Origin: an uncultured Gemmatimonadales bacterium
GTDB taxonomy: Bacteria; Gemmatimonadota; Gemmatimonadetes; Gemmatimonadales; GWC2-71-9
NCBI GenBank assembly: GCA_963695555.1
Contig: CAVOGR010000007.1
Location: 767,080-831,079 of the forward strand
DNA length: 64,000 nt
Reading direction: 5' to 3'
This document shows positions 1,278-15,854 of the stretch, one piece after another. The notes under the pieces were generated by a model. That model was not told the origin of the DNA, made no database searches, and saw only the letters and a list, made by a program, of their open reading frames with translations. The position numbers were made by a program, and so were the translations under genes. Positions within the stretch are counted from its first letter, which is position 1. The number at the start of each line of letters is the position of its first letter.

Positions 1278-4200
1278 TCAGGGCCGTGGTCGGACGCGCC
1301 TGAAACCGGGAAGCAGGGCCGGCAAGACCACGAGGGCCGCCAGGGTGCCGGCAGCCACGCCGCCGGTCGTAGCCAGCGCAATCGACCCAAAGAGGCTGTC
1401 CGACTCGGTCCCGATGGCGAGCGGGAGCAGGCTGGCCAAGGTGGTCAGGGTGACCAACACGATCATGCCGGCACGATCGCGGCAGGCGGACACGACTTCC
1501 TGCTTGGTGAGCCCAGCCCTTCCGGTTTGCGCGAGCCGCCGACGGCGCTTTTCGAGCGCCGCGTCGATCAACAGGATCGCCTGGTTGACCGCGAGGCCCA
1601 CCACCAGAATCACCCCGACGGCGGCCTCACGCGTGAAGGCAGCCTTGGCAATCCAAAAGGCCGCCCCGACTCCACCCAACGCCAACGGCAGGCTCAGGAA
1701 CACTACGCCCGCCGCCCACACCGAATCGAACACCATCGCCACCACGAGAATCACCAGCGTCACGCCCACGCCGAAGACCAGCCACAGCCCCTTACCGCTC
1801 TCGTCTTCTTCCCACGCGAACACCTCGTCATCGACCTGGTAGCCGGCAGGCACGCCGATCGATGCCATGAACGCGTCGTGGGTTCTCCGGGCAAGCTTGC
1901 TTGGCCCCCGGAAATCGTAGCTCAAAATCCTGACGTACTGCTGATCTTCCCGGCTGATGTTGCTGAGGGTTTCGCGCTCACCCACGCGCGCCAGGTCGCC
2001 GATCCGCACCGGGGCGCTTACCGCATTGGGGACCACGGCGGAGCGCAGTTCGTCGAGCGTACGCTCGACAGCGCCCGCGGTCTTGAGTGTGACCGGCAAC
2101 TCTTCTCCGTCGATCTCGATTCGTTGACTGCCCGCAGGTCCGCGGACCTCGCGGGCTACCGCCGCGGCCAGTTCGGCGCCGGTGATGCCGTGCCGGGCCA
2201 GGGCGTCGCGGTCGGGCTCCAACGTCACCGTAAAGGCCTTCTCGCGGAACCAGAAGCTGCCCGCATTGACATCGACGTCCCGTACCCGGCGAATGCGCTC
2301 CAAGCGTGCCTTGAGATCATAGGCCAGGCGCTCGACGCCTGAGAACGAATAGCCGAGAATCTTGATTCGAAAGGACACGCTGCCGCCGCCACCGAATCCC
2401 GAGCTGAAGCCGGGTCCCTGACCACGAACCGCGACCCGTGCCCCACCGATGAAGACCGCCCGCTGGGTCAGCGCCTCTTCGAGTTGGCGCGGCAAGGCGG
2501 TGAGTCCCGCATCCTTCTCGAACAGGACCTGCATGCTGGCGCCCCCGCCAAACCCGCGTCGCGTTCCGCCACCGGCGGTGACGACCTGCTCGACGCCCGG
2601 CACTCCCACTACGAGGGTTTCGAATTCCCGCATCCCGCGATCGAGGCTCTCCGGATCCGATCCGCGGGGGAAGCTCAAGAAGACGGACAGCGTGGTCCGT
2701 TGTCCAAACCAATCGCCCCACGAGGTGCGCGGAACCTTGGTGATGAACCCCCAGGTCACGAGCCCGAGCGCTCCGACAGCTAAACCGAGCGTGACCCAGC
2801 GCCACCGAAGCAGTCGAATCACCACCCGCCGGTAGAACCGGCTCATCCGTGGCCAGTGCGCCTTCGACGCCCCGTGCCCGGCGCTCAAGGCGGGAATCAT
2901 GATCACGGCCGAAACAACCGAACATCCGAGGGCCAGGGCGAACGCGGCGGCAAAGGGCATGAAGGCAGCGCGGGCATTGCCTTGCAAATAGAGGAACGGG
3001 AAGAGCACCACGGCGGTGGTCATGGTCGCACCGAGGAGCGCCGGCAGAATCCGGACCCCGACTTCCGTCCGGCCCTCGGTCGTGTCCGGCGCCCGCCGGA
3101 GCCGCTCCACCACGACGAGGCCGTTCTGAACCAGAATCCCAACACCCATCCCCAGCCCGGCGAGGGTAAGGAGGTTGGCGGGGATACCCAGGAGATACAA
3201 ACCGAGCGCCGTACCGAAGATGGCCACCGCCGCGCTGCCGAGCACCAGCAGCACCGACTTGGCATTGCGCAGCGTGACGGCAAGTACCAACGCGACCAGC
3301 ACAAAGGCGATCGCACCGCGTCGGCCGAGATCGCGCAGTTGCTTGGCCAGGTCGACGCTTTCGTCCGTGGCGACGGAGAGGCGGAGCCCTTCGGGCAGGG
3401 CGGGTTCGAGCTCGTTCATCAGACGTCGAACCCCCGCCGCGGTCTTGATCGCGTCCGCCCCGGGCAACCGCGAAATGCGCATCGAGACGGCGGGGCGACC
3501 GTTGATTCGATAGAAGCTGCCTCTGGCATCTTCCTCCTGCCGAATCGACGTGATGTCGGACAATTGATAGACCAACCCGCCCGCTCCGCGCACGGGCAAT
3601 CGGCCGAGATCGTCGAGCGCTCCGGGCTGATCGCGGAGCACGACGCGTCGTTCCGTCGCGCCGGCCTGGTCCTCACCCAGCGAGCGGACCACCCGCGACT
3701 GCCCCAGTACCCGCAAGAGTTCCGCGGGGCTGATGTCGAGCTGCCGCAGCTGGACCGGGTTGTACGACACCGATACGCCCAAGTCGGCCCCGCCCGATGG
3801 CTCGCCGACGGCCACGCCGGGAATTGCGCTCACCCGGGGAAGGATGCGTTCGCGCGCAATGCGCTCGAGGGCGCCGGGAGTGTAGGGACCGGACAGGGTG
3901 TACTCGAGCAGCGGGACTTCGTCCAGTTCCTCGGGCACGAAGTTGGTGACCGAGGCTGGCGTCGTCCCCGGCGGGAACTCCGGACGCAGCAGCTCGAGGC
4001 GCTCGAGAATTCCCAACCGTGCCATCTGCACGTTTGCGTCGGGCTCGAGCTCGACCTCGAGCGACGCGAAGCCCTCGCGCGATTCGCTCGACGTCTTCTT
4101 GACGCCCCGGACTGCTTGGGTAGCCGCCTCGACGGGGGCGGTGAGATACATTTCGACCAGTTCGGCCGCCGAGCCGGGCCAACCGATGGTAATCTGCAGG

Positions 4201-4325
4201 CGCGGCAGCTCGACCGTCGTCTTGGTGGCAAGCGGTAGCCGCGTGAACGCTACCGCTCCCGCGAGAATAATGGCGACCGCAACGGCCCAGATCACCGCCG
4301 GCCGTCGGACAGCCCACCCGATCAC
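1278..4325 (-). CDS. RND efflux permease (AcrB/MdtC-like HAE family), 1015 aa
   Basis: Long ORF with N-terminal TM helix, large periplasmic loops and 12-TM RND architecture. Its start overlaps the stop of the upstream RND gene by 4 nt. Confidence 0.9.
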   Translation of the reverse strand: MIGWAVRRPAVIWAVAVAIILAGAVAFTRLPLATKTTVELPRLQITIGWPGSAAELVEMYLTAPVEAATQAVRGVKKTSSESREGFASLEVELEPDANVQMARLGILERLELLRPEFPPGTTPASVTNFVPEELDEVPLLEYTLSGPYTPGALERIARERILPRVSAIPGVAVGEPSGGADLGVSVSYNPVQLRQLDISPAELLRVLGQSRVVRSLGEDQAGATERRVVLRDQPGALDDLGRLPVRGAGGLVYQLSDITSIRQEEDARGSFYRINGRPAVSMRISRLPGADAIKTAAGVRRLMNELEPALPEGLRLSVATDESVDLAKQLRDLGRRGAIAFVLVALVLAVTLRNAKSVLLVLGSAAVAIFGTALGLYLLGIPANLLTLAGLGMGVGILVQNGLVVVERLRRAPDTTEGRTEVGVRILPALLGATMTTAVVLFPFLYLQGNARAAFMPFAAAFALALGCSVVSAVIMIPALSAGHGASKAHWPRMSRFYRRVVIRLLRWRWVTLGLAVGALGLVTWGFITKVPRTSWGDWFGQRTTLSVFLSFPRGSDPESLDRGMREFETLVVGVPGVEQVVTAGGGTRRGFGGGASMQVLFEKDAGLTALPRQLEEALTQRAVFIGGARVAVRGQGPGFSSGFGGGGSVSFRIKILGYSFSGVERLAYDLKARLERIRRVRDVDVNAGSFWFREKAFTVTLEPDRDALARHGITGAELAAAVAREVRGPAGSQRIEIDGEELPVTLKTAGAVERTLDELRSAVVPNAVSAPVRIGDLARVGERETLSNISREDQQYVRILSYDFRGPSKLARRTHDAFMASIGVPAGYQVDDEVFAWEEDESGKGLWLVFGVGVTLVILVVAMVFDSVWAAGVVFLSLPLALGGVGAAFWIAKAAFTREAAVGVILVVGLAVNQAILLIDAALEKRRRRLAQTGRAGLTKQEVVSACRDRAGMIVLVTLTTLASLLPLAIGTESDSLFGSIALATTGGVAAGTLAALVVLPALLPGFRRVRPRP

Positions 4326-7300
4326 TCCGCCCCTCCGACACCGGCCGGCACCGTCGCGGTTTCTTCACCGGACCGACGCCGACTCGCGGCACCGCCTTTC
4401 CACCGCTCCACGACGACGTACCCGGCGGGCATTAGAAAGAAGGTCACCACCAGCGCGCTCGCGGCACCGCCGATCACGCTCGCCGCCAGCGGCTGATAGA
4501 GCGCGCCACCGCTGCCGAACCCGAACACCAGCGGGAACACACCCGCGATGGTAGTCAACGAGGTCATGACCACCGGTCGGAGCCGCTGACGCCCACCCAA
4601 CGCAATGGCCTCTTCCAACGGGTGCCCCGCTTGGCGGAACCGCTCGATGGCCGCGAGCTTCACCACCGCATCGTTGTCTGCGATGCCGATCATGACGATC
4701 AAGCCGATGAGCGACACGGCATTGAGGCTTTGTCCGGTGAGCCACAGGGCGATGATGCCGCCGCCTGCGGCAAGCGGAACGGTGAGCATGACGACGAGCG
4801 GTGTCGTGAAGGACGCAAACTCACCGGCTAGCACCAGGAACACCAAGGCCACCGAGAGCACCGCCACCAAGCCGAATTCCGAAATGGTCCGGCGTTGTTC
4901 GATGTCGGCGCCGGTGAGTTCCCACGTGACACCGGGCGGTGCGCCGGCCGCCGTGAGGCGCTTGGCGACCTCCGCCGCGGCGCGAGCCGTGCCGCCGCGC
5001 TCGACCCCGGCTTCGACGATCGACACCGGCCGCTGGTTGACCCGCACCACCTCGATCGGAGCCCGCGTCTCCTTTACCGAAACGAGTTGCCCCACCGGAA
5101 TGCCGCCCACCTGTGTTGTGAGCGCCGTGGCCAGATCCTCGTTGGCCGCCCCAGCAAGCCGCACGCGAATCGGCGTCCGCCGGTCGGTTTCCCTGAGTTC
5201 CGTGGCCTCGACACCGCCGAGTCCACCTGCCAACGCATCCGCCACGGTCTCGACGTCGAGGCCGTGCTCCGCAATGCGATCCCGGCGGAATTCGATCTCG
5301 ACCACCGCTTGGGTTCCGCCGTAGGCATCGCGCACATCGACGAGAGTGGGAATGCTGTCGAGCACGGCCTCTGCCACGGCGGCCCACGCCTCCGCTTCAT
5401 CCGGTCTGGCGGCTCCGACTTCGACCCGCACGATGCGCCCTTCACGACCGATGAGGCTGCCGAATTCCGATTGCCCTGCAAGGTCGATGGCCAACGACCC
5501 GTGCGCCAGGTCGGGAACGCGAGCGCGCAGGCGATCCGCGAAGCGCGCGGCGTCGGTCCCGGCTCGGACGGGAGCGAGGAGTTGGGCCGTGCTCGACGAG
5601 CCCGGCAGAGCCCCGGACAACACCTCCTCGTCGGTGGCCTTTCCAATTCGGCTGTAGATCCCGGTCGACCCCGACTCCAGCGCGGCCGTTTCGATGCGCG
5701 CCACTTGGCGGGCGGTTTCTTCGATGGTGGTCCCATCGGGCAGGGTCAGCTCCACCACCAGGACCCCTTCGTCCACCTGAGGCAGGATTTCCCTGGGCAA
5801 CTGGAGGGCCAACACCACCATGAGGAGAAGGCCGGCCCCACTCAACGCGAAGACCCGCCCAGGATGAGCCAGGCTCCAGCGCAGGCCGCGTTCGTACCAG
5901 TCGCCAAACCGCCGACCGAAGGCGTCGAGCGCTTCGCGCCGAGCGCTGGGGCCGGCGGCTTCGGCCCGCGTCCGGGAGGGTGCCTGCCGTGTCCCGCGGC
6001 GGCGGCCGGCGAGGATGACAGGCAGCAATGTCAGGGCGAGCACCAAGGACGCGCCGAGCGCGGTCACGACGCTCAAGGATAAATCCCGGAACAAAGCCGC
6101 CGCGAGTCCGCGCACAAACACGATGGGACCAAAGACCAGCAGCGTCGTGAGGGTGCCGGCGATCAGTGGACCAGCCACTTCTTCGGTTGCGCGCACGGTG
6201 GCGTCGGCCGGCGACAGGCCCGTGTGCTCGAGTCGGCCGGTAGCCTCGGACACAACGATCGCGTTGTCGACCAGGAGACCGACGCCCAAGGCGAGGCCGC
6301 CGAGCGACAAAATATTGATCGACACGTTGAGCAGCTGGAGCAGGACCAACGCAACCAACACTGACAGCGGAACCACCAGGCCGATGGCGAGCGAGCTCCG
6401 AAGGTGACCCAGGAAGACCAGGATAACGATCAACGCGAGGGCGCCGCCGAGAAAGATCTCGCGGCCCAGGTTGGCCAGCGCAGCGGTGACGAACTCCGCT
6501 TGCGCCGCGACCACCGACATGGTGATGGCAGGAAATTCTTCCGAGAGCGTCTCGATCGTCCGGTAGATGCCCTTGGTCACGGTTACCGTGTTGGCGCCCG
6601 CGTCCTTATACACCACCAGCCCGACGGCCGGCGACCCGTCGAGCCGCGTCATGGTTTCCGGGTCGCCGCTCGCGAGCGTGATCGTGGCCAGATCGCGCAA
6701 TCGGGTGCTTCCGCCGGGCGGACCGACCGGCGTCTGGCCCACCTCGTCAACATCTTGCAGCTCCGTCAGCGCCCGGACCGAGAACCGGAACTGACCGCGG
6801 CGGATGGTCCCGCCCTGGGCCGTCGCGTTGGCATTCCGAACGGCGGTGGCAATATCGGAAGGCGAGAGGCCCAGTGCGCGCATCCGATTCGGATCAACAT
6901 CGATCCGGATCTCGTCCTTGGGCGCGCCGACCACGGCCACGCTGGCCACACCCTGCAGCTGCTCGAGTCGCCGGGCGTGGACTTCTTCGCTGGTGCGCGC
7001 GATGGCGCGGAGGGTACCCGGTCCCGTAAGTCCGATGACGGCGATGGGCCGCTCACCAGGGTCGCTGGTCAGGAGCGTGGGGCGCGTGGCCCGCTCCGGC
7101 AGCTGCGACCTGACATTGTCGAGGCGCTCGCGCACGTTGAGCACGGTCGTCGCCATGTCCGTGCCCCACGCGAACCGTGCCGTCGTCGTCAACTGCCCGT
7201 TCCGGCTCACCGAACGCAGCTCGACCAGCCCCGGCGTTGCCGCGATGGCCTCTTCGATCGGCTCGGCGACGAACCGCGAGACCTCGGTGGCCGCCGCGCT

Positions 7301-7456
7301 TTCGTAATCGGTTCGAATGGTGAGAAGCGGGAGGGTCACGTCCGGCAAGAGCGACACGGGAAGCCGGCTGAGCGAAACGCTCCCGACCAAGACGAGGGCC
7401 AGCACGGCCGCGACCGTCGTGACAGGCCGCCGGACCGCCGCGTGTGTCAGCGACAT
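4322..7456 (-). CDS. RND efflux permease (AcrB/MdtB-like), 1044 aa
   Basis: Paralogous RND transporter directly upstream of the other RND gene. The tandem pair resembles the MdtB/MdtC arrangement. Confidence 0.9.
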   Translation of the reverse strand: MSLTHAAVRRPVTTVAAVLALVLVGSVSLSRLPVSLLPDVTLPLLTIRTDYESAAATEVSRFVAEPIEEAIAATPGLVELRSVSRNGQLTTTARFAWGTDMATTVLNVRERLDNVRSQLPERATRPTLLTSDPGERPIAVIGLTGPGTLRAIARTSEEVHARRLEQLQGVASVAVVGAPKDEIRIDVDPNRMRALGLSPSDIATAVRNANATAQGGTIRRGQFRFSVRALTELQDVDEVGQTPVGPPGGSTRLRDLATITLASGDPETMTRLDGSPAVGLVVYKDAGANTVTVTKGIYRTIETLSEEFPAITMSVVAAQAEFVTAALANLGREIFLGGALALIVILVFLGHLRSSLAIGLVVPLSVLVALVLLQLLNVSINILSLGGLALGVGLLVDNAIVVSEATGRLEHTGLSPADATVRATEEVAGPLIAGTLTTLLVFGPIVFVRGLAAALFRDLSLSVVTALGASLVLALTLLPVILAGRRRGTRQAPSRTRAEAAGPSARREALDAFGRRFGDWYERGLRWSLAHPGRVFALSGAGLLLMVVLALQLPREILPQVDEGVLVVELTLPDGTTIEETARQVARIETAALESGSTGIYSRIGKATDEEVLSGALPGSSSTAQLLAPVRAGTDAARFADRLRARVPDLAHGSLAIDLAGQSEFGSLIGREGRIVRVEVGAARPDEAEAWAAVAEAVLDSIPTLVDVRDAYGGTQAVVEIEFRRDRIAEHGLDVETVADALAGGLGGVEATELRETDRRTPIRVRLAGAANEDLATALTTQVGGIPVGQLVSVKETRAPIEVVRVNQRPVSIVEAGVERGGTARAAAEVAKRLTAAGAPPGVTWELTGADIEQRRTISEFGLVAVLSVALVFLVLAGEFASFTTPLVVMLTVPLAAGGGIIALWLTGQSLNAVSLIGLIVMIGIADNDAVVKLAAIERFRQAGHPLEEAIALGGRQRLRPVVMTSLTTIAGVFPLVFGFGSGGALYQPLAASVIGGAASALVVTFFLMPAGYVVVERWKGGAASRRRSGEETATVPAGVGGAE

Positions 7457-7494: not shown

Positions 7495-8658
7495 TCATGG
7501 CGTGGTGGGCCGCTCGGCGACCGTCTCGAGCCGGACCGGCGCATCGTGGGTAAGGGTGAGATGACCCTCGATGAGCACGGTGTCGCCAACCGCAACCGGG
7601 ATCAGCCCCGACACCGAGTCGGGTTCCACCGCGGTGTCGACGCCGTTGGTACGGCCCGGGGTGATGTAGACCCACTGGGCGCGCCCGTCCTTCACCACGA
7701 AGACCAACGGGCGGCCGTCCCGCTCGATCACCGCACGGGCCGGCACCAGAATCCGGTCGGCCAGCCGGGTGGCCTCCAAACGCACGTCGGCGTACATGCC
7801 CGGCCGCAGGGTTCCGTCTCCCCGGATCTGGACCAGTGCACGGCCGGTGCGGGTGACGCTGTCGACGACCGGCAGGACGGTCGCGATGCGTCCGACGACC
7901 GGGCGATCCGGTGTGGCCGCGGTGGTGATCACGGCCTGGCCGCCCGGCTTGATCAGCGGAAGATCGTGCTCGAGCACCGACGCCTCGAGCCGGAGGTTCG
8001 TCATGTCCACCACGACGGCGACTTCCTGGCTTACACTGAGCCGCTCACCCACGCTGACCTGCACACGATCCACCACGCCGGCAAACGGGGCGCGGATGGT
8101 AGCCCGTTCACGGTCGAGCTTGGCTTGCTCGTATCGGGCCCGCGCGGCTTTGAGGCCGCTGCGGGTTTCCGCGTTCGCGCGCCGCTCGGGCGTCGGTGCC
8201 TGCCCCGATACGATCGAATCCGGCAGCAGGTTGTCGACGTAGCGGAGCTGCGCCTCGTCGAGTGCGGCCTCGGACTCTTCGAGGGCCAGGTCGAAGGGCC
8301 GCGGATCCAGCTGGACCAGGGCTTGCCCGGCCGCGACACGGCGGCCCGGCCGCACCAGCACTTGCTGGACCGTGCCGGTCGCTTCGGCGCGCAAGGTGGC
8401 TGAGGCCTCCGAGCGCACTTGCCCGGTGGTGGTCACCGACAGGAGCAGGTCGCCTTTCCGGACAGTCTGACCGACCACCGGCAGCGACAGGGTGCTCGAC
8501 GCTTCGGCGCCCTCATTGTCGTTGTCTCCCTCCGCCGCCTTGGCCTTGCATCCTGCCGCAAGCGCCGTCATCGCCATGATCAGCAGGAGGCCGGAGTAGC
8601 TCCTCAGGTTCGCCACGTGCATAGAGTTCTCCAGGCCAGGCGCGTCCACTTCTTTCAT
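7495..8658 (-). CDS. RND periplasmic adaptor / membrane fusion protein (HlyD family) lipoprotein
   Basis: Signal peptide with lipobox (LAAGC) followed by an adaptor-like beta/coiled-coil region. The ATG overlaps the TGA of the upstream outer-membrane-factor gene (ATGA), indicating translational coupling. Confidence 0.85.
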   Translation of the reverse strand: MKEVDAPGLENSMHVANLRSYSGLLLIMAMTALAAGCKAKAAEGDNDNEGAEASSTLSLPVVGQTVRKGDLLLSVTTTGQVRSEASATLRAEATGTVQQVLVRPGRRVAAGQALVQLDPRPFDLALEESEAALDEAQLRYVDNLLPDSIVSGQAPTPERRANAETRSGLKAARARYEQAKLDRERATIRAPFAGVVDRVQVSVGERLSVSQEVAVVVDMTNLRLEASVLEHDLPLIKPGGQAVITTAATPDRPVVGRIATVLPVVDSVTRTGRALVQIRGDGTLRPGMYADVRLEATRLADRILVPARAVIERDGRPLVFVVKDGRAQWVYITPGRTNGVDTAVEPDSVSGLIPVAVGDTVLIEGHLTLTHDAPVRLETVAERPTTP

Positions 8659-9962
8659 GAGAGCGGCCGTCCGATAATGGCTTCGATTTGCGCTTTGGCG
8701 CGCAGGAAGTCGACGCCCGCGCTTACCGCCGCTTCCTCAGCGCGTGTCAGCGATTCTTGTGACGTCAGCACTTCGACGTACGTGATCGAGCCCAAGCGGT
8801 AGCGTTCGAGCTGAACCCGAAGATCCGCCTGTGCCGCTTCGAGACTCAGCTTGGTCACGTCGATCCGGACCCGCGCCGTGGTCAGCGCTGCGAGCTGGGC
8901 CGTGAGGCTGGCCTCGACCTGGCGGCGATCGTCGGCCAGCGTGGCCGCCACGTTATCGAATAGTACCGAGCTTTGATCGAGCTGCCGCTCGCGATTGAAT
9001 CGATCGAACAGAGTCCAGCTGAGGCCCACGTTGATGTTCGAGGTTCGCTGAAGGTCGTAGTCGTCCAACTGGCTGCCGGAAAGCTGCGTATTGGCGCTCA
9101 AGCTCAAGGAAGGCCAATACCCCGACTTGGCGGCGGTGACTTGGGCCCGCGCCGACCGCATGTTCGCATCAGACGCCAGGATCCGGGGCGATCGCTCGAT
9201 GGCTTCCTGCAGCAACACATCAGGGTCCAGGTCCATGTCGGTGGTATACAGCGACGGGTCGTCCACCGCCGAGATGCGCCCCTGTTCGCCTATCAGACGT
9301 GCCAGATTGGCCTCTGCCGTAGCCAGTTGACGCTCGGCTTCGAGCAGCTGCACACGGGCCTCGCCGAGCGTCACCACCGCACGGAGCGAGTCCGACACCG
9401 TCGCGGCCCCGGTGCTGAGTTTGGCCACCGCGATCTTGAATTGCTCTTCGGCTCGCGTGATGCCTGCCTCCCGAGCCCGGACCAACTGCTGCCCCGCGAG
9501 CGCATTGAAGAACTCGAGGCTGGTGGCCAGCGCCACCTGCGCTTCTTGATCGGCGAGCGAGGCCTCGCTCGCCTCGCGATCCGCCTTGGCGGACCGAATG
9601 GTTGCCTCGCGGCGGAAACCATCGAATAGAATCAGGCTCGAATTGATGCCGAAGTTGACGCTCCTATTGGAGTTGAGGCCGGTGAGGAGCTCGCCCGTTT
9701 GGGGGTCGAGCCGCGATTGGGCCTGTGGGAAGAACGACTGGCCGGCGCCCGCGCTCCCGGACAACGACGGGAGGTAGGCGCTGTACGCCGACCGGACATC
9801 AGAGCCGGCTACCGCGAGCGCACCGCGAGCCTGAACCACGGCCGGCTGTACCCGCCGGGCCATGGCAATGGCCTCGGCCAAGGTCACGGCCCGCTGTTGG
9901 GCCCCAAGCGGCGCGACCAGGAGAAGCCAGCACAGCCCTGCCGCGAAATGGATTGGTTTCAC
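8655..9962 (-). CDS. Outer membrane efflux protein (TolC-like OMF)
   Basis: TolC-like coiled-coil/beta-barrel repeats. Likely GTG start near 9962 giving MKPIHFAAGLCWLLLVAPLGAQQ signal peptide with GGAGG 9 nt upstream. The track ORF extends to 10085 but its extra 41 aa lack a signal peptide. Confidence 0.8.
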   Translation of the reverse strand: MKPIHFAAGLCWLLLVAPLGAQQRAVTLAEAIAMARRVQPAVVQARGALAVAGSDVRSAYSAYLPSLSGSAGAGQSFFPQAQSRLDPQTGELLTGLNSNRSVNFGINSSLILFDGFRREATIRSAKADREASEASLADQEAQVALATSLEFFNALAGQQLVRAREAGITRAEEQFKIAVAKLSTGAATVSDSLRAVVTLGEARVQLLEAERQLATAEANLARLIGEQGRISAVDDPSLYTTDMDLDPDVLLQEAIERSPRILASDANMRSARAQVTAAKSGYWPSLSLSANTQLSGSQLDDYDLQRTSNINVGLSWTLFDRFNRERQLDQSSVLFDNVAATLADDRRQVEASLTAQLAALTTARVRIDVTKLSLEAAQADLRVQLERYRLGSITYVEVLTSQESLTRAEEAAVSAGVDFLRAKAQIEAIIGRPLS

Positions 9963-10171
9963 GACGCTCGTCACCTCCGGTCTCCATATCCCATTACCAC
10001 AACGATGCATTGGGACGCCGTGGCGTCGCTCCTGAGCGCAAACGACCTCACCTGTGGCCGATAGACGCCTGCGGCGGCCCAGCAATCGCGTTCAAGTTAC
10101 TGTGATATGAGTGAACCGGATACCGGTCCGAGCGGACGCCGGCAGGGAAACGACCGGGGGTTCAGCACCTG

Positions 10172-10957
10172 CTAAAGCAGCGGCGATTCGCTCGGCTCGA
10201 TCTCGAAGAAGGTCTGTTTCAGTCGATCCCAGGCCGCCGCATCAACGTGGGTGTGCAGCTCACTCACCAGCCTACCCCCGTCGGCCAGCACCGCGATCTC
10301 CTCCTCACCGAGCAAGGTACTGATCAGCCGGTCCACCTCACGCTGGAACCAGGCCTGCGCCCGATCCCCGCGTAACAGGCGCCGGCGCTCGCGACGGAGT
10401 CCCTTCCCCTCGAGCTTCACTACCCACCCCTCACCGTAGGGGTCCTCGTTCAACAACGTCGGCCGCCGGCCGAGGGACGCATTGTGACCCACCACCGTTC
10501 CCGACACCGGGGCACGCAGGTCGACGCTGCGTTCACCTTGACGCAACCGGAAGAGCGACTGACCACGGCTGACCTTGGTGCCCTTGGCGGGCAGAATTAC
10601 CGTGTCGACCGGGCCCAAGGTGGCCTGCACCAAATCGTCCGCGCCCACTACCGCCTCGCCATGTCTGACCCGGGTCCACGTATGGCCGGAAGCGATGGCG
10701 ACATTGGCGCCGAGTCGCAGTCCCTTATGGAACAGCATGGGTTCGAACTGCGCACCGAACCAGGTGCGGAAGGAGGGGCTCACGGCGTAGGACACAATTC
10801 CGCCTATTAACGCGACCCCGAAGACTGCGACCACCCCCGCCCGCACCATCAGCGCCGCAAGGCCCAACAGCGGCAATCCGACGACGAAGAGCGCCATCAC
10901 GACTATGACGGCTCCGATTGTGAGCGCCGTTCGATACCATCGGTTTTCGGTTCGCAT
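10172..10957 (-). CDS. Membrane-anchored glycine-cleavage H-protein-like (GcvH fold) protein lacking the lipoyl lysine
   Basis: Two N-terminal TM helices followed by a GcvH-like domain (SGHTWTRV ... NEDPYGEGWVVKLE). ATG near 10957 with GGAGG 8 nt upstream. The track start at 10984 is a TTG overlapping the predicted promoter. Confidence 0.7.
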   Translation of the reverse strand: MRTENRWYRTALTIGAVIVVMALFVVGLPLLGLAALMVRAGVVAVFGVALIGGIVSYAVSPSFRTWFGAQFEPMLFHKGLRLGANVAIASGHTWTRVRHGEAVVGADDLVQATLGPVDTVILPAKGTKVSRGQSLFRLRQGERSVDLRAPVSGTVVGHNASLGRRPTLLNEDPYGEGWVVKLEGKGLRRERRRLLRGDRAQAWFQREVDRLISTLLGEEEIAVLADGGRLVSELHTHVDAAAWDRLKQTFFEIEPSESPLL

Positions 10958-10999
10958 GGTGCAACCTCCGAGCCTGTGCTCCAATCCCCAGCTCTCTCA

Positions 11000-11016
11000 A
11001 TGCATGCCCCGCACCA
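11000..11016 (-). promoter_or_regulatory. Candidate sigma-54 (-24/-12) promoter for the membrane GcvH-like gene
   Basis: Minus-strand TGGTGCGGGGCATGCAT against consensus TGGCACG-N4-TTGCW. The GG and GC dinucleotides are at the correct 12-nt spacing, and the element sits about 45 nt upstream of the ATG. Confidence 0.45.
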
Positions 11017-11113
11017 CACCGGCCTGGCCTTGGGCGCGCGCTGGAAGTTCATAAATTGCAATAGTTTTCGCCGTTTCATCTGGAGCTGTGTAACCACCGG
11101 ACGTCATGAACCC

Positions 11114-11127
11114 TGACGAATTCGTCA
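11114..11127. promoter_or_regulatory. Perfect 14-bp palindrome TGACGAATTCGTCA, candidate enhancer-binding-protein upstream element (UAS/operator)
   Basis: AT-rich palindrome in a GC-rich genome about 100 bp upstream of the sigma-54 promoter candidate. It shares the 12-mer GAATTC(G/A)TCAAC with a second site at about 12084-12098. Confidence 0.45.
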
Positions 11128-11156
11128 ACATGACTGTTGAGAAGATCAACATGATG

Positions 11157-11906
11157 TCAGGTCGTCATTTCACGAAGGAGTTGCAGGTACCGGTCACCGC
11201 CGAGTAATTGGCGCATGTCGGTCAGGACTTGGCCACCGTCGGGCAGACATGAGCCGACCTCAGCCGTGTCGGCCAGGAGGTGGAGGGCCGCACGGCGTCG
11301 GAACCCGCGGAGGTCGAACTCCGCCTGTTTCCGAGCGTCCTCCGCACTCAGCAGCCCATTGGGAGACGTACCATCAACTGGGTCGAGTTCGGTGATCCAA
11401 CCTTCCCCATAGGGATCGGCGCGCACCGCCCGCGGGTCTCCGGCCAGCACTTCGTTCCATCGCATGACACAACAGCCGAATGGAGCGCCGATTGGCAGCG
11501 TGCCCTGAGCAAGTTCGATCTCGAAGAGGAGATCGCCACCGTTCAAGCGGCGCGGGATGCCTCCGCAGTGGACTGCCGCGCAGTCGCCGATGAGATCGGA
11601 GACAAAGCCGTCGAGGCCTATTCTCAGGGTTGCCCCGTCGGTCGGACTGGCCTGGATCCAGAGGTGGCCGGTAGAGTATCGCCGATCCTCTGGGAACTGA
11701 GCGGCGTGTCGACTGGGAAGGGCGGTCAGGTGGTCGGACCGGGGAGCGAGTGGCGCGTTGCCTCCACGGAGGGCGGCATCGAGCGCGCAGCCATCGCAAT
11801 CGAACTCGCGGTCACAGAGCCGGTAGGCCACCAACCCCGCGCTCATCCACACGCAGGGCAGAGCGCCTGCCGGAAGGATCCGGTGCTGCTCTCGGCTCAT
11901 CACCAT
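11157..11906 (-). CDS. GcvH-like protein (non-lipoylatable) with N-terminal Cys cluster
   Basis: YSTGHLWIQ ... LLFEIELAQGTLP ... ADPYGEGWITELDP aligns to the GcvH fold with Gln at the lipoyl-Lys position. N-terminus has C-x12-C-x5-C-x2-C (CDREFDCDGC). ATG near 11906 with GGGAGAG RBS. The track start 11999 is a TTG overlapping the promoter. Confidence 0.7.
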   Translation of the reverse strand: MVMSREQHRILPAGALPCVWMSAGLVAYRLCDREFDCDGCALDAALRGGNAPLAPRSDHLTALPSRHAAQFPEDRRYSTGHLWIQASPTDGATLRIGLDGFVSDLIGDCAAVHCGGIPRRLNGGDLLFEIELAQGTLPIGAPFGCCVMRWNEVLAGDPRAVRADPYGEGWITELDPVDGTSPNGLLSAEDARKQAEFDLRGFRRRAALHLLADTAEVGSCLPDGGQVLTDMRQLLGGDRYLQLLREMTT

Positions 11907-11995
11907 TGGCCGCTCTCCCTTGCCGAATCGCGGCCGGGAGGCGACCCGACGTCGTTGCGAAGAAGACTCGCCTCCCAACCTCACACCACCGAATA

Positions 11996-12010
11996 GCAAG
12001 TCGGGAGCCA
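11996..12010 (-). promoter_or_regulatory. Candidate sigma-54 (-24/-12) promoter for the Cys-cluster GcvH-like gene
   Basis: Minus-strand CTGGCTCCCGACTTGCT gives TGGC-N7-TTGCT, a good match to TGGCACG-N4-TTGCW. Predicted transcript start about 11985, leader about 80 nt. Confidence 0.5.
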
Positions 12011-12083
12011 GCAGACGGGGGGGCCGAGAAGGCCGCAGATTGGGCCTAACCCCAGAGGCGATGCGACCGCGGCTTCCCGTGTC

Positions 12084-12098
12084 GTTGAATTCATCAAC
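12084..12098. promoter_or_regulatory. Second copy of GAATTC(G/A)TCAAC upstream element (GTTGAATTCATCAAC) followed by TTCATTGAA near-palindrome
   Basis: AT-rich island about 90 bp upstream of the second sigma-54 promoter candidate, in the divergent region between the GcvH-like gene and the histidine kinase. Confidence 0.45.
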
Positions 12099-12179
12099 GG
12101 TTCATTGAAAATTCCTACATCGCTCGATACCGTTCAGATGCCTGCATATCCGCGTCCATGACGGTACGCGGGAGCACTC

Positions 12180-13886
12180 ATGACCCCGACGCTCAGGGCG
12201 CGTCGATCGCTCGGGATACGCCTTCTCCTTCCGCTGGCCCTCACGGTCGGCGTCGTCTTCGCCGTTCATTCGCTGGTCAACTATCGCTCCACGCGGGCGG
12301 ACCTCGTGGGGTTCCTCCGGTCGGCGGCGGACAACGACAGCGACCTCATTCGTCGCGCTACCCATGACGGCATGCTGCTCAACCGGCTCGATGATGTCCA
12401 AGAGCTCGTCACTCGCTTGGCCGAGGGTCCCGGTGTGGCGGCAATTCGGGTCTACGACAAACACGGTGTGATCGTGCTTAGCGCCCATCGCGAGGAGATC
12501 GGCCGCTACATCGCGCTCGATTCAGAGACCTGTGTGAGCTGTCACCAGCAAGAGCATACCTCGGACGTGGGCGAACTCGAGCGCAGCGGGCTGGCGCGTA
12601 TGCCTGAAGGGGTCGAAGTGCTCCGCCACTTGTCGGTGATCCCCAATGAGCCGGCCTGTGCGACAGCCGGCTGTCACGATCCCCCGGGCCAGAAGCGGAT
12701 CCTGGGGGTCCTCGACGTGGAGATGTCGATGCTGCCGGTCGAGTCCACTCTTCGGGCGGCCCAGCAACGCATCATCGCCACGACCTTGGCGCTGATTCTC
12801 ATCATCGGCGTCGTCTCGGTGGTGTTCTTCAATCAAGTGATCCACCGACCGGTGGCGGCGCTGCACGAGGGCACACGGCGCATTGCGGCGGGCGACTTGG
12901 AAACCCGGATTTCCGTACGCGGCCAACATGAGCTATCCGAGCTGGCCCACGCCTTCAACCGCATGTCGGAGGATCTGAGTACGGCGCGGCAGGAGCTCAA
13001 GGGATGGTCGCAGAAACTCGAAGCCAAGGTCCAGGAGAAGACCAGTGAGCTCCAACGGGCTCAGCGCCAGGTACTGCACATGGAGAAGATGGCGTCGCTC
13101 GGCAAGCTCTCGGCCACGGTCGCCCACGAGCTCAACAATCCCATCAGCGGGATGCTCAACTACAGCCGCTTGGTGGAGCGCGGCCTCGAGGAGCAGCCGC
13201 TCGATCCGGACGCGCGCGAGGAACTCGGACGGTACCTCCATTTTCTCCAGAAGGAGTGCAGCCGGTGCGGCAAGATCGTCACCAACCTGTTGCTCTTCGC
13301 GCGGCGGACAGGAGCCGACATGGAGCCGATCGATCTCAACGAGATCGTGGAGCGGAGCCTGATGTTGGTGCAACACCATCTCAAGGTCAGCAACATCGAG
13401 CTCAGCACCCGGCCCCTCACGGGCAATGCCATGGTCGTCGCCGACGGCGGGCAGCTCCAGCAGGCCTTGGTGGCCCTGATGGTCAACGCGGTCGAGGCCA
13501 TGGGCGGGGCGAGGAGCGGCGGCGGCGACGTCTTGAGCGTGCGGCTGGACGCCTCTGACGGTGAGGTCACACTCGAGATCGCCGATACCGGCCCCGGTAT
13601 TTCGTCGGAGGTCCTGCCCCACATCTTCGAGCCGTTCTTCTCAACCAAGGATCAGGAGAGCGGTGTCGGCCTGGGCCTCGCGGTAGTCTACGGCATCGTC
13701 CAGCGCCACGGTGGAACCATCGATGTGGATTCCGAGCCGGGCATGGGAACCAAATTCACCCTGCGGTTACCGCGCCAGCGGCCACCGGAGGCAAGCGGCT
13801 TCTCTGCCGCCAACCCGGAATTCGAACTGCACCCGGCCGGTGGCGCAACGCGGCCCGAAGGAGACGACCCCCATGAGCACGCATGA
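12180..13886 (+). CDS. Sensor histidine kinase with periplasmic domain carrying CxxCH and Cx4CH motifs
   Basis: TM1 (LLLPLALTVGVVFAV), periplasmic region of about 165 aa containing CVSCH and CATAGCH, TM2, HAMP, and HisKA H-box (ATVAHELNNPISG) plus HATPase_c motifs. Confidence 0.9.
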   Translation: MTPTLRARRSLGIRLLLPLALTVGVVFAVHSLVNYRSTRADLVGFLRSAADNDSDLIRRATHDGMLLNRLDDVQELVTRLAEGPGVAAIRVYDKHGVIVLSAHREEIGRYIALDSETCVSCHQQEHTSDVGELERSGLARMPEGVEVLRHLSVIPNEPACATAGCHDPPGQKRILGVLDVEMSMLPVESTLRAAQQRIIATTLALILIIGVVSVVFFNQVIHRPVAALHEGTRRIAAGDLETRISVRGQHELSELAHAFNRMSEDLSTARQELKGWSQKLEAKVQEKTSELQRAQRQVLHMEKMASLGKLSATVAHELNNPISGMLNYSRLVERGLEEQPLDPDAREELGRYLHFLQKECSRCGKIVTNLLLFARRTGADMEPIDLNEIVERSLMLVQHHLKVSNIELSTRPLTGNAMVVADGGQLQQALVALMVNAVEAMGGARSGGGDVLSVRLDASDGEVTLEIADTGPGISSEVLPHIFEPFFSTKDQESGVGLGLAVVYGIVQRHGGTIDVDSEPGMGTKFTLRLPRQRPPEASGFSAANPEFELHPAGGATRPEGDDPHEHA

Positions 13887-15240
13887 GGCCAACATCCTGG
13901 TGGTGGACGACGAATTCGCCGTCCGGGACTCGCTTTACAATTGGTTCCGCAAAGACGGTTACCATGTCCACGCGGCCGAGAATGCCACCGAGGCGCTGCG
14001 CGCCCTCCAAGACCAGGCGTTCGACGTCATTCTGCTCGACATCAAGATGCCCGGCATGGACGGGATGGAGCTCCAGTCACGGATCCATACGATCGATCCG
14101 GAGATCGCCGTCATCATGATCACCGCGTTCGGATCGGTCGAGACCGCCGTACAGGCCCTCAAACAAGGCGCCTTCGACTACGTCACGAAACCGATCGACC
14201 CCGACGAGTTGAGTCACTTGGTCCACCGAGCACTCGAGCAGCGGCGACTCCAAAAGGAGAACGTGCAGCTGCGGGAGACCATCGACGAGATCGGGGCCGC
14301 CGACACGATCGTGGGCGAGAGTCCTGCCATCCTCAAGGTGCTCGAGTTGATCCGCCACGTCGCCAAGACCGAAGCGACGGTCCTCATTCGAGGTGAGAGC
14401 GGTACGGGGAAGGAATTGATCGCCCGGGCCATCCACGCGAACAGCGCCCGGCGCTATTTCCCGATCGTGCCGGTCAACTGCGGCGCCGTGCCTAACGAGC
14501 TGCTCGAGAGCGAGTTGTTCGGGCACGAGAAGGGAGCCTTTACCGGGGCGCAGCATCGGCGCAAAGGCCGTATCGAAATGGCGGACGGCGGGACGCTGTT
14601 CCTGGACGAGGTCGGAGCCATCAACCCGAAGATGCAGGTCGATCTCCTCCGGACGCTGGAGACCAAGGAATTCACCCGGCTCGGCGGCTCGAAATCCATC
14701 AAGGTGGACTTCCGGATCATTTGCGCCACCAACGAAGACTTGGAGGTGGCGGTCGAGGAGGGGCGGTTCCGCGAGGACTTTTACTATCGCATCAACGTCT
14801 TCACTATCGAGGCTCCGCCGCTTCGGAGCCGGCCCTCCGACATACCCCTATTGGCCGAGCACATCGTGAAACGGCTCGCGAGGCAGATGGACAAGCGAAT
14901 CACCGAGATCCACCCCGACGCGATGCAGCTCCTGATGGACTATGCGTGGCCCGGGAATGTGCGGGAACTCATTAACGCAATCGAGCGCGCCATGGTCGTG
15001 GGGACCCCGCCGACCATCCAACCAGAGGATCTCCCGGTCTGGGGAAGGCGATCGGTGAATGCATTCTCCGGCGAATCGCTCGCTGACGTGGAGAAGGATC
15101 ACATCGCGTCCGTGCTCGAGCACACGGGATGGAACATCACGCGTGCCGCAGAAATTCTCCGGGTCGATCGCGTGACCGTCTACAACAAGATCAAGAAATA
15201 CGACCTCCGGCAGCCGGCGACCCGGGGCGGTAAGAAATGA
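13873..15240 (+). CDS. Sigma-54-dependent response regulator (NtrC family: REC + AAA+ with GAFTGA + HTH)
   Basis: MSTHEANILVVDDEFAVRD receiver domain, GESGTGKE Walker [17 protein letters not shown]-terminal HTH. The ATG overlaps the end of the kinase gene by 14 nt. The track ORF from 13711 is an upstream extension. Confidence 0.9.
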   Translation: MSTHEANILVVDDEFAVRDSLYNWFRKDGYHVHAAENATEALRALQDQAFDVILLDIKMPGMDGMELQSRIHTIDPEIAVIMITAFGSVETAVQALKQGAFDYVTKPIDPDELSHLVHRALEQRRLQKENVQLRETIDEIGAADTIVGESPAILKVLELIRHVAKTEATVLIRGESGTGKELIARAIHANSARRYFPIVPVNCGAVPNELLESELFGHEKGAFTGAQHRRKGRIEMADGGTLFLDEVGAINPKMQVDLLRTLETKEFTRLGGSKSIKVDFRIICATNEDLEVAVEEGRFREDFYYRINVFTIEAPPLRSRPSDIPLLAEHIVKRLARQMDKRITEIHPDAMQLLMDYAWPGNVRELINAIERAMVVGTPPTIQPEDLPVWGRRSVNAFSGESLADVEKDHIASVLEHTGWNITRAAEILRVDRVTVYNKIKKYDLRQPATRGGKK

Positions 15241-15314: not shown

Positions 15315-15854
15315 GTGCCGGTGCTCCACGTCGTCCCGTTCTATTGCGGCACGGCCACCGACTTGATCGATGGGTTGGAGGCGCGTCTGGCGCGGGTGTT
15401 CGGCGTCCGGGTGGAGCACCATCCGCCGTCGTTCGAGCCGGAAGTGGCCTACGATGCCTCACGGGGCCAATACAACTCGCGGATCCTGCTTGCCCAGCTG
15501 CTCCGTCAGGTACCCGCCGACGACTCACGGATCCTCGGCGTGACCGCGCTGGATCTGTTCATCCCGGTGCTGACCTATGTCTTCGGCGAGGCCCAGGTGA
15601 ACGGCAAGGCGGCCGTCGTCTCATCACATCGACTCGACAATGCCCTATACGGCTTGCCCGCGTCCCAGGAGCTCCTATTCGAGCGGCTCTGCAAAGAAGC
15701 GATCCACGAGTTGGGCCACACTTTCAACCTGGTGCATTGCCACAATAGCGAGTGCGTGATGACGAGCTCGATGCAGATCGACGGCGTCGACCTCAAGTCC
15801 GACCGGTTCTGCGGTCGTTGCAAAGCCGCGCTGCGGCACAACGGGGTGTGCTGA
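15315..15854 (+). CDS. Archaemetzincin-like zinc metallopeptidase (peptidase M54)
   Basis: HELGHTFNLVHCHNSECVMTSS ... CGRC gives HExxHxxGxxH plus a Cys4 zinc site typical of AmzA. Confidence 0.75.
   Translation: MPVLHVVPFYCGTATDLIDGLEARLARVFGVRVEHHPPSFEPEVAYDASRGQYNSRILLAQLLRQVPADDSRILGVTALDLFIPVLTYVFGEAQVNGKAAVVSSHRLDNALYGLPASQELLFERLCKEAIHELGHTFNLVHCHNSECVMTSSMQIDGVDLKSDRFCGRCKAALRHNGVC

What the first reader, a model, noticed from the sequence alone, without database searches (positions are those of the whole stretch)
11114..12098. Two copies of an AT-rich GAATTC(G/A)TCAAC element, one a perfect 14-bp palindrome, each upstream of a GcvH-like gene
In a genome of about 68% GC, the 12-mer GAATTC(G/A)TCAAC occurs twice: as TGACGAATTCGTCA (about 11114-11127, perfect palindrome) and as GTTGAATTCATCAAC (about 12084-12098). 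The second copy is followed by the near-palindrome TTCATTGAA. No other GAATTC occurrence in the window is followed by TCAAC. Both sit about 90-100 bp upstream of sigma-54 promoter candidates, the position expected for the regulator's UAS, with IHF-type bending in between.
Basis: seen in the sequence. Interest (0 to 1): 0.6.

Follow-up and report, generated by a model that had tools for sequence, protein, structure and literature searches.

The report
Enhancer sites for a sigma-54 activator
The two AT-rich elements belong to a set of four conserved 15-bp palindromic sites (GTTGA-N5-TCAAC) that most likely are the docking sites of the neighbouring NtrC-type activator, which switches on two sigma-54 promoters in front of two GcvH-like genes; this is an ordinary kind of bacterial switch, but for a gene cassette nobody has described.

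Summary
In detail: both elements are at the stated coordinates, each upstream (minus strand) of a GcvH-like gene. The conserved unit is a 15-bp palindrome, core GTTGA-N5-TCAAC (cross-phylum consensus GTTGAGAWTCTCAAC). Each pair lies about 105-150 bp upstream of a conserved -24/-12 promoter (11001-11016 and 11995-12010, minus strand). The cassette [archaemetzincin-like <- NtrC-type regulator <- histidine kinase] <-> [GcvH-like 2 -> GcvH-like 1] recurs in Gemmatimonadales, Acidobacteriota and Planctomycetota. Across these loci the motif, its 20-21 bp pairing, its position and the regulator's recognition helix are all conserved, while the flanking DNA is not. A matrix trained only on the distant phyla ranks B1 and A2 first and second in the 64-kb window. 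The best reading is enhancer (UAS) sites of the adjacent activator. No binding experiment exists, and the IHF idea finds no support. It is a new member of a known kind, of moderate interest.

The parts
11136..11150 (.). Site B1: GTTGATCTTCTCAAC (read on the minus strand). It is an exact GTTGA-N5-TCAAC dyad, the strongest site in the window, and its centre is about -152 from the inferred start of the GcvH-like 1 transcript.
   Evidence: 21.0 bits, rank 1 of the window with a matrix trained on other phyla
11115..11129 (.). Site B2: GTTGACGAATTCGTC (minus strand). It has two mismatches in the promoter-proximal half-site, lies 21 bp from B1, and its centre is about -131.
   Evidence: 11.9 bits, rank 8. 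The orthologues have GTTGACGAATTCATC at the same position.
12084..12098 (.). Site A2: GTTGATGAATTCAAC (minus strand). It is an exact dyad, invariant in 8 Gemmatimonadales orthologues, and its centre is about -106 from the inferred start of the GcvH-like 2 transcript.
   Evidence: 19.3 bits, rank 2
12104..12118 (.). Site A1: GTAGGAATTTTCAAT (minus strand). It is conserved in the orthologues and overlaps a candidate -35 of the kinase operon.
   Evidence: 12.5 bits, rank 6. Distant loci have tandem sites at the same 20-bp spacing in region A.
11995..12010 (-). Sigma-54 type -24/-12 promoter PA (TGGCTCCCGACTTGCT) for GcvH-like 2.
   Evidence: the only match with one mismatch in the window. It is conserved as TGGCGCTCGACTTGCT in the orthologues.
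11001..11016 (-). Sigma-54 type -24/-12 promoter PB (TGGTGCGGGGCATGCA) for GcvH-like 1. It is weaker by consensus, but TGGTG...ATGC is conserved.
11157..11906 (-). GcvH-like 2 gene (249 aa). It has an N-terminal C-x12-C-x5-C-x2-C motif, an H-protein-like domain without the lipoyl lysine, and a conserved C-terminal helical tail.
10172..10957 (-). GcvH-like 1 gene (261 aa). It has an N-terminal hydrophobic helical hairpin and an H-protein fold in which the lipoyl lysine is replaced by Glu142, plus a C-terminal helical tail.
12180..13886 (+). Sensor histidine kinase (HAMP, HisKA, HATPase). The segment between its two hydrophobic stretches carries conserved CxxCH (12531-12545) and Cx4CH (12657-12677) motifs.
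13873..15240 (+). NtrC-family response regulator / bacterial enhancer-binding protein. It has a receiver domain, a sigma-54 AAA+ domain with GAFTGA (14533-14550), and an HTH_8 domain with recognition helix VDRVTVYNKIKKY (15163-15201). It is the presumed binder of the sites.
15315..15854 (+). Archaemetzincin-family gene, conserved next to the regulator across phyla. It is part of the cassette; its role is unknown.
12105..12133 (+). Candidate sigma-70-type promoter of the kinase-regulator operon (TTGAAA-N17-TACCGT). Both hexamers are conserved in the orthologues, and its -35 overlaps site A1. This is speculative: it fails the strict consensus scan.
   Evidence: read. Not found.

Best explanation
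The elements are enhancer (upstream activating) sites for the NtrC-family response regulator encoded divergently at 13873-15240.

Proposed mechanism:
- The kinase (12180-13886) phosphorylates the regulator.
- Regulator dimers bind the 15-bp dyads GTTGA-N5-TCAAC through the C-terminal Fis-type helix-turn-helix.
- Two dyads 20-21 bp apart, which puts them on the same face of the helix, nucleate the AAA+ ring.
- The ring loops to sigma-54 RNA polymerase held at the -24/-12 promoters about 105-150 bp downstream and opens them.
- GcvH-like 2 is then transcribed from PA and GcvH-like 1 from PB. By read-through in this genome, the outer-membrane factor, membrane-fusion protein and two RND pump genes downstream may be transcribed as well.
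- Site A1 overlaps the likely -35 of the kinase operon, so the same binding may also autoregulate the regulator's own operon.

What is shown: the sequences, their conservation, their spacing and position, and the co-occurrence with the regulator.

What is inferred: which protein binds, the transcription start points, read-through into the pump genes, and autoregulation.
For: (1) An unbiased count of all 5-mer/gap/reverse-complement dyads over 36 orthologous intergenic regions puts GTTGA-N5-TCAAC first, exact in 17 of 36. Second is TCAAC-N6-GTTGA, which is the junction of tandem sites.

(2) In the alignment of 8 Gemmatimonadales orthologues (target proteins 63-91% identical to the window's), the site blocks and the -24/-12 elements are the islands of invariance in otherwise diverged spacers.

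(3) The same motif lies upstream of sigma-54 promoters in front of both GcvH-like genes in Acidobacteriota and Planctomycetota loci.

(4) A matrix trained only on those distant loci ranks B1 and A2 first and second in the 64-kb window, at 21.0 and 19.3 bits against 14.1 for the next hit. A1 and B2 rank 6th and 8th and sit exactly 20 and 21 bp from the strong sites.

(5) In the distant loci, 14 of the 17 hits with at most one mismatch fall in the 3.5% of bases that make up the two intergenic regions (binomial p = 2e-18).

(6) All 36 regions have a site of at least 14 bits. Spacing between consecutive sites is 20 or 21 bp in 27 of 31 cases. Outside these regions there is 1 such site in 203,685 positions, against 48 in 9,252 inside.

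(7) Position is conserved. B1 and B2 sit at about -152 and -131 in the Gemmatimonadales loci and within roughly 10-25 bp of that in most distant loci. A2 sits at -106 or -117, differing by one helical turn.

(8) The regulator has a receiver domain, a sigma-54 AAA+ domain with GAFTGA, and HTH_8. It is syntenic with the targets in three phyla. Its recognition helix VDRVTVYNKIKKY is essentially invariant (one conservative substitution each in two Planctomycetota loci), while its linker diverges.
Against: - There is no binding or expression data.
- rpoN is not in the window: no RpoN box was found.
- PB matches the -24/-12 consensus poorly, with 3 mismatches outside GG/GC.
- One locus (L010) has the sites and promoters but no kinase or regulator within 16 kb, so adjacency is not universal.
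- The matrix statistics for the distant loci are partly circular, because those loci trained the matrix.
- A whole-genome scan for positional bias could not be done.
- The metagenome scan with a degenerate tandem pattern returned only chance or coding hits.
Confidence: 0.8

Rival explanations
1. The dyads are operators of some other transcription factor, for example a CRP/FNR-type or a TetR/MarR-type regulator of the efflux genes, and not of the adjacent sigma-54 activator.
For: TTGA...TCAA resembles the FNR half-sites. In this genome an RND efflux operon follows the GcvH-like genes. One locus (L010) has the sites without an adjacent kinase or regulator.
Against: - The spacing is wrong for CRP/FNR. 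Here TTGA-N5-TCAA has an odd central base, whereas the FNR box TTGAT-N4-ATCAA is TTGA-N6-TCAA (read).
- The sites are conserved in loci that have no RND genes.
- They always lie 75-210 bp upstream of -24/-12 promoters, in tandem and phased, which is the activator geometry and not an operator overlapping a promoter.
- The regulator's recognition helix is conserved together with the motif.
Confidence: 0.1
2. The similarity between the two regions is a leftover of the tandem duplication that produced the two GcvH-like paralogues, or plain chance, and has no function.
For: The two downstream genes are paralogues.
Against: - No similarity extends beyond the dyads between the two intergenic regions.
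- The dyads are invariant or nearly so across orthologues whose spacers have diverged completely, and they recur in three phyla.
- The exact dyad is expected 0.04 times per window.
Confidence: 0.03
3. The inverted repeats act at the RNA level, as hairpins that terminate or stabilise the GcvH-like 2 transcript or structure the leaders.
For: B1 and B2 lie just after the GcvH-like 2 stop codon, and each can form a 5-6 bp hairpin.
Against: - The folds are no more stable than shuffles (z = -1.0 and -1.2).
- There is no T-tract and no terminator-like site, and no Rfam match.
- Substitutions in the orthologues hit one arm without compensation: GTAGA..TCAAC, GATGA..TCAAC and GTTGA..TCTAC.
- Under the proposed promoter assignments (no start site has been mapped), the same motif in region A lies upstream of both inferred divergent transcription starts and would not be transcribed.
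Confidence: 0.03

Closest known systems
NtrC enhancer at E. coli glnAp2 (from established knowledge of the family)
   Same: There are two dyad-symmetric sites for a response-regulator-type sigma-54 activator, more than 100 bp upstream of a -24/-12 promoter and on the same helical face. The sites also overlap a sigma-70 promoter that the activator represses; the analogue here is A1 over the candidate kinase-operon -35.
   Different: The sequence differs: TGCACC-N5-GGTGCA, a 17-bp dyad, against GTTGA-N5-TCAAC, a 15-bp dyad. The spacing differs: about 32 bp against 20-21 bp. The targets and the signal are unrelated. The regulator scores far below the NtrC equivalog cut-off (424.7 against 558.6 bits).
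ZraS/ZraR with zraP, and AtoS/AtoC with atoDAEB (E. coli)
   Same: A two-component kinase and a sigma-54 activator are encoded divergently from, or next to, the sigma-54-dependent target, with inverted-repeat activator sites in the shared intergenic region. AtoC and ZraR are the best-scoring named families for this regulator, and ZraR is among its nearest solved structures.
   Different: The scores are well below both equivalog cut-offs (487 against 714 bits, and 436 against 760 bits). The sensor domain is different, with CxxCH and Cx4CH motifs. The targets are different: H-protein-fold proteins without a lipoyl lysine. There are two successive sigma-54 promoters, each with its own site pair.
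Aquifex aeolicus NtrC1/NtrC4-type activators (nearest solved structures: 4l4u, 3dzd, 1ny5)
   Same: They have the same three-domain architecture and are the closest sequence relatives with solved structures (E = 8e-108 to 5e-100).
   Different: There is no evidence of shared DNA specificity or shared targets. These are a structural reference only.
Glycine cleavage H-protein (GcvH) and lipoate-binding GcvH-like proteins
   Same: The target proteins have the H-protein fold (TM 0.91 normalised to 1onl, rmsd 1.6 A; Pfam GCV_H).
   Different: The lipoyl-lysine position holds Glu142 in GcvH-like 1 and is never Lys in the family. These proteins also carry an added membrane hairpin or a 4-Cys motif and a C-terminal helical tail. 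They score below the GcvH equivalog cut-offs (65 against 116 bits). They are therefore not glycine-cleavage H proteins, even though several sources name them so.

Membership tests
Enhancer (UAS) of a bacterial enhancer-binding protein | The site lies roughly 70-200 bp upstream of a sigma-54 -24/-12 promoter. | tested here: met
   Site centres are at about -106 (A2), -131 (B2) and -152 (B1) from the inferred starts. The geometry is closely similar across the 18 non-redundant loci.
Enhancer (UAS) of a bacterial enhancer-binding protein | The sites are dyad-symmetric, usually two or more, and phased by whole helical turns. | tested here: met
   The unit is a 15-bp palindrome. Consecutive sites are 20 or 21 bp apart in 27 of 31 cases.
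Enhancer (UAS) of a bacterial enhancer-binding protein | A cognate activator with a sigma-54 AAA+ domain (GAFTGA) and a DNA-binding HTH is present and co-conserved with the motif. | tested here: met
   Pfam Sigma54_activat 1.7e-71, HTH_8 8.4e-15 and GAFTGA. Synteny holds in three phyla. The recognition helix is essentially invariant.
Enhancer (UAS) of a bacterial enhancer-binding protein | The activator binds the sites directly, and transcription depends on the activator and on sigma-54. | not testable with these tools
   This needs EMSA or footprinting, and expression in rpoN and regulator mutants.
Sigma-54 promoter | GG and GC elements are spaced as in TGGCAC-N5-TTGCW and are conserved in orthologues. 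| tested here: met
   PA has 1 mismatch and is the best match in the window. PB has 3 mismatches, but TGGTG..ATGC is conserved.
Sigma-54 promoter | rpoN is present in the genome. | tested here: inconclusive
   No RpoN box is encoded in the 64-kb window. The rest of the genome is not available.
IHF-assisted looping | A match to WATCAANNNNTTR lies between the enhancer and the promoter. | tested here: not met
   There is no match with up to 2 mismatches in 11017-11114 or 12011-12083. Only AA-N4-TTG is conserved in region B.
CRP/FNR-type box | TTGAT-N4-ATCAA: even spacing, a 14-bp dyad. | tested here: not met
   The sites are TTGA-N5-TCAA with a central base pair, one bp shorter than an FNR box.
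Intrinsic terminator or structured RNA | A stable GC-rich hairpin with a T-tract, or covariation that supports pairing. | tested here: not met
   No terminator-like site. Fold z-scores are -1.0 and -1.2. Arm substitutions are uncompensated. No Rfam hit.
Glycine cleavage H-protein (for the target genes) | The lipoyl-lysine is conserved in the E-S-V-K motif. | tested here: not met
   The Lys of 1onl aligns with Glu142. That position is D, E, N, G or A in the nine relatives aligned (majority D in the 24-sequence alignment). Scores are below the equivalog cut-off.

The most novel reading that the evidence does not exclude
The sites mark the regulon of an undescribed signalling cassette that spans several phyla.

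- The cassette comprises a kinase with CxxCH and Cx4CH motifs, probably haem-binding, in its presumed periplasmic sensor segment; an archaemetzincin-like protein; and an NtrC-type activator.
- It drives, through sigma-54, a pair of H-protein-fold proteins that cannot be lipoylated. One has a membrane hairpin and the other a 4-Cys motif.
- In Vicinamibacterales and a deltaproteobacterial genome, the same sites and promoters head operons that add NrfC-like and NrfD-like subunits and c-type cytochromes.
- In Gemmatimonadales an RND efflux system follows instead.

On this reading the cassette would be a new envelope redox-sensing response, and the 'GcvH' proteins would be structural or regulatory partners of membrane redox or efflux machinery rather than glycine-cleavage components.
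Probability: 0.4. Interest if true: 0.55.

Novelty: new member of a known kind. Interest (0 to 1): 0.4.

Why it matters
The finding gives a precise, testable operator for an orphan two-component system: a 15-bp dyad, paired at 20-21 bp, about 105-150 bp from two -24/-12 promoters in this window. That system is conserved in Gemmatimonadota, Acidobacteriota and Planctomycetota, phyla where almost no transcriptional regulation has been worked out.

It also corrects an annotation. The target genes are named 'glycine cleavage system H protein' in several sources, yet they lack the lipoyl lysine and are controlled by a signal-responsive sigma-54 switch.

The link to NrfCD-type and cytochrome genes in relatives, and the Cys/His motifs in the kinase, suggest a redox signal that can now be sought with reporter fusions.

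Tried and rejected
(1) Metagenome scan with the degenerate tandem pattern GTTGA-N5-TCAAC-N6-GTTGA-N5-TC (17 specified bases). None carried the GcvH-like genes; a few weak HK/RR tblastn matches most likely reflect generic kinase and regulator domains. Only 7 of 135 matches had a sigma-54-like site nearby. Many were one recurrent coding sequence. The scan was uninformative because the pattern is too degenerate for that collection.

(2) IHF consensus between sites and promoters: no match.

(3) Consensus scan for sigma-70 promoters and intrinsic terminators in 10900-12250: none found. The candidate kinase promoter therefore rests only on conservation.

(4) RNA-level reading: folds are not better than shuffles, and there is no Rfam family.

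(5) AGGCTCGGAGGTTGCA at 10960-10975 scores as a sigma-54 match with 2 mismatches. It overlaps the ribosome-binding site 2 nt from the ATG and is not conserved in orthologues. It was rejected as a promoter.

(6) Literature searches on archaemetzincin, GcvH, sigma-54 and Gemmatimonadetes, and on the motif letters, found nothing relevant.

(7) Duplication-remnant idea: no similarity between the two regions beyond the dyads.

(8) rpoN is not in the window.
Full report
**1. What is in the sequence.**

The window is 65.6% GC, and both elements lie in local troughs of 0.44-0.52 GC.

Gene content (Pfam; NCBIfam), minus strand:
- GcvH-like 2, 11157-11906
- GcvH-like 1, 10172-10957
- an outer-membrane efflux protein, 8655-10085
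- a membrane-fusion protein, 7495-8658
- two RND permeases, 4322-7456 and 1278-4325 (the second confirmed)

Gene content, plus strand (divergent):
- a HAMP/HisKA histidine kinase, 12180-13886
- an NtrC-family response regulator, 13873-15240, with a receiver domain, a sigma-54 AAA+ domain containing GAFTGA, and HTH_8
- an archaemetzincin-family gene, 15315-15854

**2. Is it more than chance, and what is the real unit?**

That is only weakly unusual: 0.41 expected with up to one mismatch, and 8 of 100 shuffles reach 2.

Reading the flanks shows a better unit, the 15-bp dyad GTTGA-N5-TCAAC. It occurs exactly twice in 64 kb, against 0.04 expected and 0 of 100 shuffles.

I call the sites B1 (11136-11150), B2 (11115-11129), A2 (12084-12098) and A1 (12104-12118).

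**3. Promoters.**

The best match in the window to TGGCAC-N5-TTGCW is TGGCTCCCGACTTGCT at 11995-12010 on the minus strand. It lies 92 bp upstream of the GcvH-like 2 start.

In front of GcvH-like 1 the conserved candidate is TGGTGCGGGGCATGCA at 11001-11016, minus strand.

A nominally better match at 10960-10975 overlaps the ribosome-binding site and is not conserved, so I reject it.

If the start is taken as 12 nt after the -12 GC (an inference), the site centres are at about -106 (A2), -131 (B2) and -152 (B1).

**4. Related loci.**

Homologues of GcvH-like 1 are few. There are 46 clusters below 1e-47. The closest named hit is Gemmatimonadales, and others come from Planctomycetota.

A scan of one genome per species returned 18 loci. 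Exact-protein look-ups returned 12 more.

Mapping the window's proteins onto them shows a conserved cassette: [archaemetzincin-like <- regulator <- kinase] divergent from [GcvH-like 2 -> GcvH-like 1]. It is present in Gemmatimonadales, in Acidobacteriota (L003) and in Planctomycetota including Phycisphaerae (L005-L009, L011-L013).

The regulator is 70-78% identical across phyla, while the targets are 35-49% identical. The RND genes follow only in some Gemmatimonadales.

**5. Phylogenetic footprint.**

I aligned the two intergenic regions of 8 non-redundant Gemmatimonadales loci. The invariant islands are:
- the block GGAAnTTTCAATGAACyGTTGATGAATTCAACG (A1 plus A2)
- the pair GTTGAyCTTCTCAAC-N6-GTTGAcgaATTCrTC (B1 plus B2)
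- the two -24/-12 elements
- a hairpin next to the kinase start

The DNA between these islands has diverged beyond recognition.

The 14-bp 'perfect palindrome' is not conserved. L019, the closest divergent orthologue compared (GcvH-like proteins 87-91% identical), has GTTGACTAAATCGTC there. It is therefore an accident inside B2.

A2 sits at -106 or at -117/-118 in different orthologues. The difference is a 10-11 bp indel, one helical turn.

**6. Unbiased motif test.**

I counted every 5-mer/gap(0-12)/reverse-complement dyad over 36 regions from 18 loci. GTTGA-N5-TCAAC comes first, exact in 17 regions. TCAAC-N6-GTTGA, the junction of tandem sites, comes second.

The consensus from the distant phyla is the full palindrome GTTGAGAATCTCAAC.

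A matrix built only from those distant loci ranks B1 (21.0 bits) and A2 (19.3 bits) first and second among all positions of the window; the next hit scores 14.1. A1 and B2 rank 6th and 8th.

In the distant loci, 14 of 17 hits with at most one mismatch fall in the two intergenic regions, which make up 3.5% of the bases (p = 2e-18).

All 36 regions hold a site of at least 14 bits. Consecutive sites are 20 or 21 bp apart in 27 of 31 cases. Outside the regions there is one such site in 203,685 positions, against 48 in 9,252 inside. This last comparison is partly circular for the loci that trained the matrix.

More distant cassettes, whose regulators are about 48% identical (L014-L016), and locus L010 show the same tandem sites. 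In L010, L015 and L016 a sigma-54 promoter with at most 2 mismatches follows them; none was found within range in L014. L010 has three successive units, and L004 has one such unit in front of its GcvH-like gene.

**7. Who binds?**

The regulator's C-terminal helix VDRVTVYNKIKKY is essentially invariant from Gemmatimonadales to Planctomycetota (single conservative substitutions in L006 and L011). The preceding linker is not conserved. This matches the conservation of the DNA motif.

The regulator is closest to AtoC, ZraR and NtrC but scores below every equivalog cut-off. Its nearest solved structures are the Aquifex NtrC-type proteins and ZraR.

Together with the geometry, this makes the adjacent regulator the most likely binder. 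That remains an inference: no experiment exists, and I found no paper on this cassette or motif in the held library.

**8. Rivals.**

- FNR/CRP-type box: the spacing is one base short and odd (TTGA-N5-TCAA against TTGA-N6-TCAA).
- Efflux-specific repressor: the sites are conserved where no efflux genes follow.
- Duplication remnant: there is no similarity beyond the dyads.
- RNA hairpin or terminator: there is no T-tract, the folds are not better than shuffles, arm changes are uncompensated, and there is no Rfam match.
- IHF: there is no consensus match with up to two mismatches between sites and promoters.

**9. What the regulon encodes.**

The model of GcvH-like 1 (pLDDT 82) has a long N-terminal helical hairpin, a central domain and C-terminal helices. 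The central domain superposes on H-protein (TM 0.91 normalised to 1onl, rmsd 1.6 A). The lipoyl lysine aligns with Glu142 and is never Lys in the family.

GcvH-like 2 carries a conserved C-x12-C-x5-C-x2-C motif.

The kinase's sensor segment has conserved CxxCH and Cx4CH motifs.

In L014-L016 the operon headed by the same sites adds a TAT-signal 4Fe-4S protein, an NrfD-like membrane protein and c-type cytochromes. In L028 a 4Fe-4S gene follows GcvH-like 1.

These points suggest a redox-related envelope function, but that is conjecture.

**10. Verdict.**

It is wrong in register and site count, and unsupported on IHF.

The finding is a new member of a well-known kind of element, attached to an undescribed but widely conserved cassette. 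Interest is moderate, at 0.4.

Noticed in passing
window 12149-12172 (+ strand), just upstream of the kinase ATG at 12180: A conserved hairpin, CCGCGT-loop-ACGCGG(GAG), lies in the presumed 5' leader of the kinase-regulator operon. Its 3' arm runs into the GGGAG ribosome-binding site. The arms are invariant in 8 orthologues while the loop varies (-15.6 kcal/mol, z = -1.7). It could be an mRNA-stabilising or translation-controlling stem, or another protein site.
   Followed up: partly
window 12105-12133 (+ strand): TTGAAA-N17-TACCGT is conserved in the orthologues as TTGA(A/G)A-N17-TA(C/G)CGT. It is a candidate sigma-70-type promoter for the kinase operon, and its -35 overlaps site A1, which hints at autoregulation as at glnAp1. 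The strict consensus scan did not call it.
   Followed up: partly
window 12531-12545 and 12657-12677 (kinase residues 118-122 and 160-166): CxxCH and Cx4CH motifs lie in the segment between the kinase's two hydrophobic stretches. They are conserved in all relatives down to 36% identity, which suggests a covalently haem-binding or metal-binding sensor.
   Followed up: partly
window 15315-15854 (+); L014 2254-2637; L015 1949-2407: An archaemetzincin-family gene always travels with the kinase and regulator. It sits after the regulator in most loci, and between the kinase and the regulator in L014 and L015. Its role in signalling is unknown.
   Followed up: no
window 10172-10957 and 11157-11906 (-): Both 'GcvH' genes encode H-protein folds that cannot be lipoylated: Glu or Gln stands at the lysine position. 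Several public sources nevertheless name the relatives 'glycine cleavage system H protein'. GcvH-like 2 has a conserved N-terminal 4-Cys motif (window 11787-11855).
   Followed up: partly
L016 2445-6406; L015 5182-9652; L014 4166-9800; L028 3403-4317: In distant relatives the operon behind the same enhancer sites (with sigma-54 promoters identified in L015 and L016) also encodes a small MSCPYL... protein, a TAT-signal 4Fe-4S dicluster protein, an NrfD-like membrane protein and c7/c3-type or multihaem cytochromes. These are interleaved with two GcvH-like genes.
   Followed up: partly
window 1278-4325 and 4322-7456 (-): Two consecutive, overlapping RND permease genes follow one membrane-fusion protein and one outer-membrane factor. 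This arrangement recalls heteromeric pumps of the MdtBC type. There is no terminator-like signal or motif between GcvH-like 1 and the efflux genes, but read-through was not tested.
   Followed up: no
window 10960-10975 (-): AGGCTCGGAGGTTGCA matches the sigma-54 consensus with two mismatches, but it is the ribosome-binding site region 2 nt from the ATG and is not conserved. It is a decoy for consensus scans.
   Followed up: yes
L034, L038-L040, L042, L049, L050, L082, L083, L098 and others (metagenome scan): The sequence GTTGAGCTGGTCAACCATCGTGTTGATGGTGTC recurs in many unrelated soil contigs of 55-66% GC, sometimes near kinase-like genes. It is most likely a conserved coding segment, unrelated to the sites studied here.
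   Followed up: no
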